A stretch of 64,000 bases of DNA from an uncultured Prevotellaceae bacterium (GTDB lineage: Bacteria > Bacteroidota > Bacteroidia > Bacteroidales > Bacteroidaceae). Positions within the stretch are counted from its first letter, which is position 1; each line of letters opens with the position of its first letter. The notes beneath the pieces were generated by a model. The model was given only the letters and a program-made list of their open reading frames with translations. It was not told the origin of the DNA and did not search any database. The stretch is from the NCBI GenBank assembly GCA_902783625.1, contig CACZRN010000013.1, forward strand, positions 979 to 64,978. The letters are read 5' to 3'. Position numbers and translations under genes: made by a program. Below are positions 9,517 to 54,823 of the stretch, in pieces.

Positions 9517-9626
9517 CAGTTGCTATTTGTCATGTAACTCCTTGCAAACTTGTTGAGCGCATTGCGAACCACTGACACCAAGGGAAGTAATCATTGTCTC
9601 CCTGTCTCATCAAATCTAATATAAAA

Positions 9627-9709
9627 AATTTTGCTAGCAAAATTTCGAATAGAAAGGCTCTTTAATGGCAATAGAAAGCCTCTTTAACGAGAATTTTGCT
9701 AGCAAAATT
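9627..9709. repeat. Phased-dyad intergenic element copy 1 (cap-2 units-cap)
   Basis: AATTTTGCTAGCAAAATT palindromes centred at 9635.5 and 9700.5 flanking two 22-bp units. Confidence 0.9.
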
Positions 9710-22665: not shown

Positions 22666-22849
22666 CTAAAAACCCCTTATTTAAACCCAATCCAGATAAA
22701 AACGCCCATTTTTCGCTCTCAAAGCCATTTTTCGCCCAAATCTCCGAAATATCCCGCTTTTTCATCAAATACCTGTAACTCGTTCTGCTTCAATTATCTA
22801 CGCGTCTTTCTTCCTTTGAATAGGAATCAAGAGTTGGTGTTGCACCCTC

Positions 22850-22937
22850 AATAAAGAGCCTCTTTAATGCCATTAAAGTGCCCAAGTAACAGTCTTAAAG
22901 TGCCCATCTAATGCCATTAAAGAGCCCACTTACCAGC
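22850..22937. repeat. Uncapped 22-bp tandem array x4 (phased-dyad family)
   Basis: aataaagagcctctttaatgcc / attaaagtgcccaagtaacagt / cttaaagtgcccatctaatgcc / attaaagagcccacttaccagc. Confidence 0.75.
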
Positions 22938-30913: not shown

Positions 30914-30996
30914 AAATTTGCTAGCAAAATTTTTAATAGAAAGCCTCTTTGACGACAATAAAGGGCCTCTTCAATGACAATTTTGCTAGCAAAATT
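30914..30996. repeat. Phased-dyad intergenic element copy 2 (cap-2 units-cap)
   Basis: TTTGCTAGCAAA caps centred at 30922.5 and 30987.5. Confidence 0.9.
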
Positions 30997-38525: not shown

Positions 38526-38630
38526 AATTTTGCTAGCAAATTTTCGATTAAAAAGGCTCTTTATTGACATTAAAAGGGCTCTTTAATGACATTAGAAAGG
38601 CTCTTTATTGAAAAATTTGCTAGCAAAATT
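38526..38630. repeat. Phased-dyad intergenic element copy 3 (cap-3 units-cap)
   Basis: Caps centred at 38534.5 and 38621.5 (87 bp = 65+22); three att.aa..ggctcttta.tga units. Confidence 0.92.
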
Positions 38631-51621: not shown

Positions 51622-51900
51622 TTTCTTCCGAAAAGCGGTGCAAAGTTAAGGCATTTTCCGCTATCTACCAAATTTTAGGGTGTATTTTTTCAAAAAAATC
51701 TCCTTTTCATCTAAATAATTCAACAAAAACGGCATTGAGATTATGTGCCAATGACACTGTTGCCGCATTCTACAGAATATGTATAAAGGCACATATTAAG
51801 ACTTTAGAGCTTTTACCAACTGCTATATTTTAAACTATGCGACACCTTTTTTCAATCTCAAATTAGTGTGTTATGATACCTACCTGTCTCGTCTCTTGAA

Positions 51901-51983
51901 AATTTTGCTAGCAAAATTTTGATTAAAAGGGCTTTTTAATGACATTAGATGGGCTCTTTGTCGATAATTTTGCTAGCAAATTT
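51901..51983. repeat. Phased-dyad intergenic element copy 4 (cap-2 units-cap)
   Basis: Caps centred at 51909.5 and 51974.5. Confidence 0.9.
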
Positions 51984-54670: not shown

Positions 54671-54735
54671 ATTCATTTAGCTTTTCACTTACTCGCCTTA
54701 TTAATCTGCAAGCGTCAACCAACCTCTTATTCCGG

Positions 54736-54823
54736 ACATAAGAGGCTCTTATATCACACATAAAAGCCTCTTAAGTCGCACATAAGGGCCTCTTTTATCG
54801 CGCATAAGAGCCTCTTATGTAAC
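54736..54823. repeat. Uncapped 22-bp tandem array x4 (phased-dyad family variant)
   Basis: acataagaggctcttatatcac / acataaaagcctcttaagtcgc / acataagggcctcttttatcgc / gcataagagcctcttatgtaac. Confidence 0.85.

What the first reader, a model, noticed from the sequence alone, without database searches (positions are those of the whole stretch)
9627..9709. Dispersed intergenic element of exactly phased dyads: AATTTTGCTAGCAAAATT-(22-bp unit)n-AATTTTGCTAGCAAAATT
Seen: four copies (9627-9709, 30914-30996, 38526-38630, 51901-51983). Each has two near-perfect 18-bp palindromic caps enclosing units whose consensus TAAAGAGNCTCTTTA is itself a dyad. Dyad centres are 9635.5/9657/9679/9700.5, 30922.5/30944/30966/30987.5 and 51909.5/51931/51953/51974.5. 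Spacing is always 21.5-22-21.5 bp even though unit sequences have diverged. Three of four copies lie between convergent genes. Inference: conserved spacing of about two helical turns with drifting sequence suggests a lattice for cooperative binding of dimeric protein(s) on one DNA face (nucleoid, topoisomerase or BIME-like role), or a non-autonomous mobile element. It fits neither CRISPR nor a classic TIR MITE, and no cognate enzyme is in the window.
Basis: partly seen in the sequence, partly recalled or inferred. Interest (0 to 1): 0.8.

Follow-up and report, generated by a model that had tools for sequence, protein, structure and literature searches.

The report
Palindrome-capped mosaic repeat of rumen Prevotella
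A rumen Prevotella genome carries about 115 copies of an 83-base non-coding module: two near-invariant 18-base palindromes enclose two variable 22-base units, the inner part is swapped between copies exactly at the palindromes, and the design recalls the Neisseria intergenic mosaic elements but has no known protein partner.

Summary
All four copies sit at the stated coordinates with the stated 21.5-22-21.5 bp phasing.

In the whole genome (a 2.58-Mb Prevotella MAG) the 12-mer TTTGCTAGCAAA occurs 229 times; the next most common perfect 12-bp palindrome occurs 7 times. Cap-to-cap spacing is 65 bp in 111 of 112 pairs and 87 bp in one. The few other spacings (66-67 and 86-89) belong to a second cargo module.

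The element is the capped sub-family of a much larger set of uncapped 22-bp-unit intergenic arrays; TRF finds about 120 period-22 arrays in this genome. This scan has met such arrays before in other Prevotella genomes.

- **Conservation.** Caps are about 99% conserved, the inner 47 bp about 82%.
- **Cassette exchange.** At orthologous loci with 99-100% identical flanks, the inner cassette is sometimes replaced by one identical to a copy elsewhere, with breakpoints inside the caps.
- **Solo caps.** The two solo caps in this genome are filled in other strains.
- **Not found.** No target-site duplication, no cap-flanked gene, no bias in gene context or orientation, no base-pair covariation.

Best reading: a lineage-specific, non-autonomous mosaic repeat that works like Neisseria NIMEs, with the caps as constrained joints. 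The protein-lattice idea is neither shown nor excluded. Novelty: new variant of a known kind.

The parts
9627..9709 (+). Copy 1: cap (9627-9644), two 22-bp units with junctions (9645-9691), cap (9692-9709)
   Evidence: both caps are the perfect 18-mer. A metagenome orthologue has the identical cassette (L171).
30914..30996 (+). Copy 2: slip-variant left cap, two units, perfect right cap
   Evidence: It lies between convergent ORFs.
38526..38630 (+). Copy 3: the only three-unit copy with intact caps in the genome (cap spacing 87)
51901..51983 (+). Copy 4: two units; lies between co-oriented ORFs and downstream of a tRNA gene
   Evidence: Metagenome orthologues differ at 0 and 3 inner positions (L158 and L180).
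22848..22935 (.). Related uncapped array of four 22-bp units of the same unit family (ATTAAAG.GCC...)
54735..54822 (.). Related uncapped array of four 22-bp units of the ACATAAGAG/CTCTTATGT stem family

Best explanation
The element is the capped sub-family of a lineage-specific, non-coding, non-autonomous mosaic repeat of a rumen Prevotella clade. Its building blocks are short modules laid on a 21-22 bp grid: the 18-bp palindromic cap, 22-bp units, and a 48-bp 'D' cargo. The caps act as the joints of the mosaic. Shown: (a) cassettes are exchanged between dispersed copies with both breakpoints inside the caps; (b) cap-units-cap collapses to, or arises from, a single cap; (c) caps also bound a different cargo at the same spacing, and that cargo forms tandem cap-cargo runs; (d) copy number differs about eight-fold between sister species, while many sites are shared. 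Inferred: exchange runs by short-homology gene conversion or hairpin-promoted template switching at the palindromes, or by an unidentified cap-specific recombinase as proposed for dRS3 in Neisseria. The near-invariance of the caps reflects a constraint, most simply recognition by a trans-acting protein. Any host-level function is unknown.
For: - Abundance: 229 exact cap cores; spacing 65 in 111 of 112 pairs. The cap is 33 times commoner than the next perfect 12-bp palindrome. It holds 263 of the genome's 976 CTAG, a tetranucleotide that is ten-fold avoided here.
- Conservation: cap core 99.7%; cap positions not used for detection 98.6%; inner 82.5%; flanks about 45%. A search with the inner profile alone finds capped copies with 215 perfect, 10 one-mismatch and 3 two-to-three-mismatch caps. 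Everything else it finds is uncapped arrays.
- Cassette swaps: L176 against C5:8033 has flanks 100 and 99 of 100, but 14 of 47 inner positions differ, and its cassette is 46 of 47 identical to the one at C5:22820. L011 (sister species) against C32 has flanks 100% and 97.7% with 13 inner differences, and its cassette is identical to the C35 copy. L194 carries a cassette identical to another C109 copy. Single-unit swaps occur in L035 and L187. In 7 of 53 orthologous pairs the inner part exceeds flank divergence at P<0.01, three of them at P<1e-14.
- Solo caps: C19 and C23 are filled in other strains.
- D module: cap, 48 bp, cap-like end; 24 copies, tandem in C76 and C77.
- Age and turnover: an orthologous copy occurs in a genome whose flanks are only 55-90% identical, with the caps kept. 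Of 17 orthologous intergenic regions in the sister species, 3 keep the element, at least 8 hold other 22-bp arrays, and at least 3 hold no repeat of this kind.
- Young sub-family of copies differing by 2 or fewer inner positions.
- No target-site duplication.
Against: - No protein partner, recombinase or transposase could be tied to the caps.
- No precise empty site was found, so insertion as such is not shown.
- Cap conservation between orthologues is partly ascertained, because searches required intact caps.
- The homology arms are only about 20-24 bp, short for RecA-type conversion.
- A 65-bp segment is too short for most site-specific recombinases to excise.
- MAG and metagenome assemblies could in principle contain chimeras. 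However, a double switch inside two 18-24-bp repeats is unlikely, and the same pattern appears in independent assemblies.
Confidence: 0.55

Rival explanations
1. Protein-binding lattice. The caps and the conserved half-units are binding sites, phased two helical turns apart, for one or more DNA-binding proteins. The element is kept because the nucleoprotein complex does something for the chromosome, such as nucleoid structuring, topology or a barrier. This is compatible with the best explanation rather than opposed to it.
For: - Strict 21.5/22/21.5 phasing and fixed 65-bp cap spacing.
- The unrelated D cargo keeps caps 66-67 bp apart.
- Caps stay invariant despite genome-wide CTAG avoidance.
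- Caps are retained at an orthologous site across species.
- The conserved part of each unit is a direct repeat, CTCTTTAATG, every 22 bp.
- Another Prevotella species arrays the same palindrome at a 21-bp period.
- There is no bias for gene context or orientation, as expected for a DNA-level rather than an RNA-level role.
Against: - No candidate protein was found.
- At least four unrelated unit sequences share the 22-bp period in the same genome, so one sequence-specific binder cannot read them all.
- The sister species has other array types, or nothing, at many of the same sites, so no site depends on this particular sequence.
- Binding was not testable here.
Confidence: 0.3
2. Ordinary MITE. 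It would be a deletion derivative of an insertion sequence, moved in trans by a DDE transposase that recognises the 18-bp terminal inverted repeats.
For: - The caps are perfect TIRs, and the whole element folds as one hairpin: -33.2 kcal/mol, z -7.4.
- More than 100 intergenic copies exist, with expansion in this lineage.
- A young sub-family of near-identical copies exists.
Against: - No target-site duplication at any boundary or length.
- No cap pair encloses a gene within 6 kb.
- No match in the plasmid or phage collections.
- The caps are far better conserved than the rest, which passive decay of a MITE does not predict.
- Solo caps and cap-bounded cassette swaps are not MITE behaviour.
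Confidence: 0.12
3. REPIN-like element moved by a REP-associated Y1 transposase (RAYT) acting on hairpins in single-stranded DNA.
For: - Two Y1_Tnp genes are present in the genome.
- The element has a hairpin architecture and no target-site duplication.
Against: - Neither Y1 gene is flanked by caps or units.
- The strong one, at C50:3427-3879, is followed by a different inverted repeat.
- No conserved GTAG-type tetranucleotide lies 5' of the hairpin.
Confidence: 0.07
4. RNA element: a bidirectional terminator, a 3'-end stabiliser like REP, or a small RNA.
For: - The predicted hairpin is strong.
- Three of the four window copies lie between convergent genes.
Against: - Genome-wide, 28 copies lie between divergent genes, and orientation relative to genes is unbiased at 12 against 19.
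- Variable positions do not covary in either the long-hairpin or the local-dyad model, and several pair less often than chance.
- No Rfam family matches; there are only far sub-threshold hits to generic miRNA-precursor hairpins.
- The stems are AU-rich and no dedicated U-tract follows them.
Confidence: 0.05

Closest known systems
Neisserial intergenic mosaic elements (NIME: dRS3 repeats flanking RS elements; Bentley et al. 2007, PMC1797815)
   Same: Short (18-20 bp) dyad-symmetric joints flank interchangeable cargo of several families. The units are single or chained. They are intergenic and sit at syntenic positions, but their content changes between strains. Cargo diversity is attributed to recombination at the joints. 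No target-site duplication is reported.
   Different: The joint sequence is unrelated (ATTCCCN8GGGAAT against AATTTTGCTAGCAAAATT). Cargo here is 47-48 bp and lies on a 22-bp grid, against 19-214 bp there. Only two or three cargo kinds exist here, against more than 100 RS families. No phage or IS110-type recombinase that uses the joint was found. The host is Bacteroidota, whereas that paper states NIMEs were not seen outside Neisseria.
BrickBuilt minisatellite/MITE of Porphyromonas gingivalis (Klein et al. 2015, PMC4596501)
   Same: Same order (Bacteroidales). It is intergenic and species-restricted. Internal head-to-tail repeats of about 22-23 nt are bounded by terminal inverted repeats.
   Different: [quoted passage not shown] It has 19 copies. 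Here the unit number is fixed at two in about 95% of more than 110 copies, the ends are palindromes, and there is no IS-like TIR.
BIME/REP of enterobacteria and BOX elements of pneumococcus (PMC3049150 for BOX)
   Same: Mosaic combinations of a few short motifs. Whole-element hairpins form. Internal module number can vary. Some BIMEs are known protein-binding sites; that IHF and gyrase bind them is from my own knowledge.
   Different: REP units are about 35-bp imperfect palindromes in alternating orientation. BOX ends (boxA, boxC) are about 50 nt and differ from each other. Neither has an identical perfect palindrome at both ends or a 22-bp grid.
22-bp phased intergenic arrays of Prevotella noted earlier in this scan (e1-3892627, e1-3918121, e1-4195555)
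   Same: Strict 21-22 bp period. Usually 3-4 units, each with a small dyad. Intergenic. Same sites across species, but changing content.
   Different: Those arrays were described without terminal palindromes. Here a fixed palindromic unit caps exactly two ordinary units, and cap-bounded cassette exchange is documented.

Membership tests
NIME (Neisseria) | 20-bp dRS3 joint ATTCCCNNNNNNNNGGGAAT | tested here: not met
   The joint here is AATTTTGCTAGCAAAATT. The definition is taken from PMC1797815.
NIME (Neisseria) | Joints flank many interchangeable repeat-sequence families, singly or in arrays | tested here: inconclusive
   There are two cargo kinds plus hybrids (unit pair, D module, unit+D), composites cap-UU-cap-D-cap, and tandem D-cap runs. 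This is far fewer families than in Neisseria.
NIME (Neisseria) | Syntenic positions with dynamic content between strains | tested here: met
MITE | Terminal inverted repeats, small size, non-coding | tested here: met
   The 18-bp caps are perfect TIRs, the element is 83 bp, and it has no ORF.
MITE | Target-site duplication flanking the element | tested here: not met
   There is no excess of direct repeats for boundary offsets of 0-8 and lengths of 2-8. The best case is 20 observed against 11.5 expected.
MITE | Autonomous parent element with matching ends | tested here: not met
   No cap pair encloses an ORF within 6 kb. There is no match in plasmids or phages. The genome is only 84.6% complete, so absence is not proven.
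REP/REPIN with RAYT | Single-copy Y1 transposase gene flanked by the repeats it mobilises | tested here: not met
   Y1_Tnp genes lie at C50 and C30 and are not flanked by caps or units.
BrickBuilt | 23-nt tandem repeats with leader and tail and IS5-like TIR GAGACCTTTGCA | tested here: not met
   The period is 22, the ends are different, and no leader or tail is detectable by BLAST.
CRISPR array | Identical repeats separated by unique spacers, usually with cas genes | tested here: not met
   Units are contiguous with no spacers, and copies are dispersed at more than 110 loci.
Plasmid-type iterons | Direct repeats of about 22-bp period clustered at one origin next to a rep gene | tested here: not met
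   The period matches, but copies are dispersed over more than 100 chromosomal intergenic sites of every gene arrangement.

The most novel reading that the evidence does not exclude
The caps are the recognition sites of a so far unidentified Bacteroidales protein, either a palindrome-specific recombinase or an architectural protein. That protein drives a cassette-exchange system on a 22-bp grid, a Bacteroidota counterpart of the dRS3/NIME system. The same machinery would underlie the family-wide, sequence-independent 22-bp periodicity of Prevotella intergenic arrays.
Probability: 0.25. Interest if true: 0.75.

Novelty: new variant of a known kind. Interest (0 to 1): 0.55.

Why it matters
Rumen and gut Prevotella are among the most abundant mammalian symbionts, yet their non-coding repeat content is almost undescribed.

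This element gives a clean, countable case in which one short palindrome is held almost invariant while everything around it turns over. That palindrome makes up 27% of all perfect 12-bp palindromes in the genome and 27% of all CTAG sites. The sequence between two such palindromes is demonstrably swapped between loci.

That makes two open questions testable with simple reagents, a cap oligonucleotide and a two-cap reporter:
- What fixes the 22-bp period of Prevotella intergenic arrays?
- Do NIME-like joint-and-cassette systems exist outside Neisseria?

Practically, these repeats break short-read assemblies. Many contigs of this MAG end in them, and they could serve as strain markers.

Tried and rejected
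- **Public reads.** The organism is present in bovine, sheep and goat gut metagenomes of 12 studies, but every run is held as contigs. Depth peaks and 'joints' at the elements are cross-mapping of other copies. This gives no verdict on excision, inversion or transcription, and the RNA-run contigs did not inform on the element.
- **Viral contigs.** The cap pair gave 0 hits and the single 18-mer gave 1 hit in 2.9 million contigs, which is chance level.
- **Plasmid and phage BLAST.** No match.
- **Rfam.** Nothing at gathering level. At E up to 1 there are only generic plant miRNA-precursor hairpins far below threshold.
- **Target-site duplication scan.** Negative.
- **Larger composite element.** BLAST clustering of 150-bp outward flanks gave only tiny clusters. 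By eye there are weakly conserved flank types (TTCTGAAGGCAATGCAAG..., ATTTGTTCGAAAAAA...GTTTCT, and a CCCTTTG...AAGGG hairpin). My regular expressions classified under half of the copies, so I do not define a longer element.
- **Promoter idea.** In about half the copies the flank plus cap reads TAATTTTG, which matches the Bacteroidetes -7 box TAnnTTTG (from my own knowledge). I found no properly spaced TTTG -33 element by reading, and there is no orientation bias, so I dropped it.
- **Covariation.** Tests for the long hairpin and for the local dyads were negative.
- **Inversion of the inner segment between the inverted caps.** There is one candidate (L163: direct distance 17, inverted 7). Its left flank alignment is only 47 bp, and its cassette is closer still to another copy (3 differences), so it is better read as a swap.
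- **Precise empty sites.** None turned up in 1.5 Mb of related DNA, which was itself chosen for containing elements.
- **Cross-phylum hits.** The same 12-mer pair occurs in Spirochaetaceae and Bacteroidales Pc512 bins, Steroidobacteraceae, Pirellula and Haliotispira.
- **IS110-type gene.** None found.

Full report
**What is there**

The four reported copies are in the sequence exactly as described. The core TTTGCTAGCAAA occurs 8 times in the window against 0.18 expected.

The window is contig C13:979-64978 of a 2.58-Mb MAG with 148 contigs, 48% G+C and 84.6% completeness. Its closest public relative is 'Prevotella sp. RGIG4872' from roe deer rumen (JAFUVV01). That genome is 85-97% identical over kilobases, and the genus holds more than 400 species representatives. 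I therefore treat the host as a rumen Prevotella. Its DNA occurs in bovine, sheep and goat gut metagenomes of 12 studies.

**Genome-wide census**

- The core occurs 229 times. The next most frequent perfect 12-bp palindrome occurs 7 times.
- Allowing one core mismatch, 112 cap pairs exist: 111 at spacing 65 and one at 87, which is window copy 3.
- With two mismatches the only further spacings are 66-67 (11 pairs) and 86-89 (6 pairs). These belong to a second cargo described below.
- Many contigs end inside the element, so the true copy number is higher.
- CTAG is ten-fold under-represented in this genome (976 observed, about 10,000 expected). Of the 976, 263 lie in caps.

**The element is part of something larger**

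A profile of the inner 47 bp alone finds the capped copies plus some 270 further strand-hits. Those extra hits are uncapped arrays of the same 22-bp units.

TRF finds 142 period-22 hits, which reduce to 121 non-redundant arrays. They fall into at least four unit families: ATTAAAGAG/CTCTTTAAT, ACATAAGAG/CTCTTATGT, AGTACA.../...TGTACT, and a GATAGC type. Two such arrays lie in the window. Uncapped arrays have 2-8 units, mostly 3-4. Capped ones have two units in about 95% of cases.

The cap centre is 21.5 bp from the first unit centre, so the cap behaves as one more unit of the same grid. In another Prevotella species (G016) the same palindrome forms three consecutive 21-bp units at 24 sites.

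Earlier notes of this scan had already recorded strict 22-bp intergenic arrays in other Prevotella genomes. The new feature here is the cap.

**Anatomy and conservation**

Percentage of copies agreeing with the consensus:

| Region | Agreement |
|---|---|
| Cap core | 99.7% |
| Cap positions not used for detection | 98.6% |
| Two A/T-run positions that slip (AATTTT or AAATTT) | 78% |
| Inner 47 bp | 82.5% |
| Unit right halves | 89% |
| Unit left halves | 79% |
| Flanks | about 45% |

Inner cassettes differ from each other at about 12 of 47 positions on average. A sub-family of roughly a dozen copies lies within two differences of each other.

Among copies found by the inner profile only, 215 caps are perfect, 10 have one mismatch and 3 have two or three. 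The contrast between caps and inner part is therefore not an artefact of how copies were found.

As a single strand the element folds into one long hairpin, with cap on cap and unit 1 on unit 2 (-33.2 kcal/mol as RNA, z -7.4). The variable positions do not covary in that model or in the local-dyad model, and several pair less often than chance.

**Genomic context**

All copies are intergenic. The eight overlaps are with doubtful ORF calls from my crude gene finder. Counts are 28 between divergent genes, 21 between convergent genes and 31 between co-oriented genes. In the co-oriented cases, inner orientation agrees with gene direction in 12 and opposes it in 19. Uncapped arrays show the same spread.

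This speaks against a terminator, 3'-UTR or promoter role. It shows that 'three of four convergent' is a small-sample effect.

**Distribution and turnover**

- The exact element was not found in 24 and then 100 sampled congeners.
- The unit dyad occurs at most once in each of 150 congeners.
- The cap core occurs 0-3 times in 399 of 400 congeners.
- The element occurs in JAFUVV01 (13 exact pairs against 103 here), once each in two other MAGs, and in 83 rumen-type metagenome contigs.

Most of the 13 copies in the sister species lie at sites shared with this genome. One copy is shared with a more distant MAG whose adjacent flank is only about 55-60% identical, while the caps are intact.

Conversely, 17 intergenic regions that carry the element here could be anchored in about 1.06 Mb of the sister genome. 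Three of these carry it there too, at least eight hold a different 22-bp array (mostly the GTAC type), and at least three hold no repeat of this kind.

So the sites are stable, the occupant changes, and this lineage has greatly enriched the capped type.

**Mechanistic evidence**

1. **Cassette exchange.** A metagenome contig (L176) matches locus C5:8033 at 100 of 100 and 99 of 100 flanking bases and at both caps. Its 47-bp cassette differs at 14 positions and is 46 of 47 identical to the cassette of C5:22820, whose flanks are unrelated. The sister species has, at the C32 locus (flanks 100% and 97.7%), a cassette identical to that of the unrelated C35 locus, while another metagenome strain has the C32 cassette there. 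L194 shows the same with a C109 copy. L035 and L187 show replacement of a single unit. Of 53 orthologous filled pairs, seven have inner divergence above flank divergence at P<0.01, three of them at P<1e-14. Without the six largest swaps the inner part diverges at 3.7% against 5.1% for flanks, which is roughly neutral.
2. **Solo caps.** The two clean solo caps of this genome (C19, C23) are complete elements in other strains. The difference is exactly one cap plus the cassette, 65 bp.
3. **Other cargo.** Twenty-four copies of a 'D' module were found. It consists of a cap, 48 bp with the hairpin GCCCCTTATCAAGGGGC, and a cap-like end. It occurs alone, fused to one unit, chained after a unit pair, or in tandem.
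4. **Negative findings.** There is no target-site duplication and no gene between caps within 6 kb. No IS110-type gene was found. Two Y1 transposase genes exist but are not associated with caps. There is no match in phage, plasmid or viral collections.

**Interpretation**

The descriptive core is well supported: a lineage-specific mosaic repeat in which palindromic caps are the joints at which modules are exchanged, lost or chained.

How exchange happens is inferred. Single-unit swaps, with one breakpoint at the conserved inter-unit junction, favour a homology-driven or template-switching process over a strictly cap-specific enzyme. Both remain open.

Drift under conversion alone cannot explain why caps are some forty-fold less diverse than the cassettes they carry, so I infer a constraint on the caps. 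That idea is not tested here. It cannot be the whole story, because unrelated unit sequences share the period.

**Comparison with known systems**

The nearest published analogue by architecture and behaviour is the neisserial NIME. It has 20-bp dRS3 inverted repeats flanking interchangeable RS elements, sits at syntenic positions with dynamic content, and was proposed to recombine at dRS3 (PMC1797815). The sequence, cargo size, grid and host differ, so this works like a NIME but is not a member.

BrickBuilt of P. gingivalis (PMC4596501) is the nearest relative by host and by having about 22-23-nt internal repeats. It has IS5-like ends, long leader and tail segments and a variable unit number.

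BIME/REP and BOX (PMC3049150) share only the mosaic principle.

I found no paper describing this element or the Prevotella 22-bp arrays. That is a limited full-text search, not proof of absence.

**Verdict**

It is a new variant of a known kind (mosaic intergenic repeats). It is of moderate interest, mainly for the invariant CTAG-containing palindrome, the documented cap-bounded cassette exchange, and the unexplained 22-bp grid.

Noticed in passing
window 22848-22935 and 54735-54822; genome-wide about 120 arrays: Uncapped arrays of 22-bp units occur in at least four stem families that keep dyad symmetry with different outer bases (ATTA..TAAT, ACAT..ATGT, AGTACA..TGTACT). Each array also reads as inverted half-sites alternating every 11 bp.
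   Followed up: partly
G000 contigs C3, C14, C18, C57, C76, C77, C80, C90, C99, C104, C123 (not in the window): A 'D' module has 24 copies: a cap, about 48 bp containing the GC-rich hairpin GCCCCTTATCAAGGGGC, and a degenerate cap (AAATGCTAGCAAAATT). It is tandem at contig ends, and its core also occurs without caps next to other GC-rich hairpins (C22:11291, C120:1098).
   Followed up: partly
G016 loci L121-L132: Another Prevotella species carries TTTGCTAGCAAA as three consecutive 21-bp units, the middle one degenerate, at about 12 sites. These are embedded between 22-bp arrays built on GCTTAGC/GCTAAGC.
   Followed up: partly
Loci L004-L033 (other phyla by record title): The same 12-mer recurs in unrelated repeat architectures: 21-bp tandem arrays in two bins of one sample (Spirochaetaceae Pc512_bin53 and Bacteroidales Pc512_bin96, possibly mis-binned), cap-like ends around GGGGAC...GTCCCC in Steroidobacteraceae and a proteobacterial MAG, and 78-bp tandem repeats in Pirellula. 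Whether this is chance or shared recognition was not resolved.
   Followed up: no
G000:C50:3427-3879 and the 240 bp after it: A 151-aa Y1_Tnp (IS200/RAYT-type) gene scores 90 bits and lies at the end of a co-oriented gene row. It is followed by its own inverted repeat (GTGCGACATCTTCGAAGTCGC ... GCGACTTCGAAGATGTCGCAC). It may belong to a separate REP-like system.
   Followed up: no
Sister genome G117, e.g. L061:8640-8730, L072:17385-17475, L099: At intergenic sites where this genome has the capped element, the sister species has 4-6 units of AGTACAAAGCCCATGTACTC-type 22-bp repeats. Both families exist in both genomes but in very different numbers.
   Followed up: partly
Whole genome G000: CTAG is about ten-fold under-represented (976 against about 10,000 expected). 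CCTAGG, TCTAGA and ACTAGT are the three rarest 6-bp palindromes.
   Followed up: yes
Flanks of several copies, e.g. window 9590-9612 and 51880-51897; G000 C2:1530-1593, C113, C119:5250-5300: Short tandem heptamer or 21-bp repeats (GGAGACA/TGTCTCC runs; CACTCTACA/GTAGAGTG runs) often lie directly beside the capped elements. This suggests that further repeat families share these intergenic sites.
   Followed up: no
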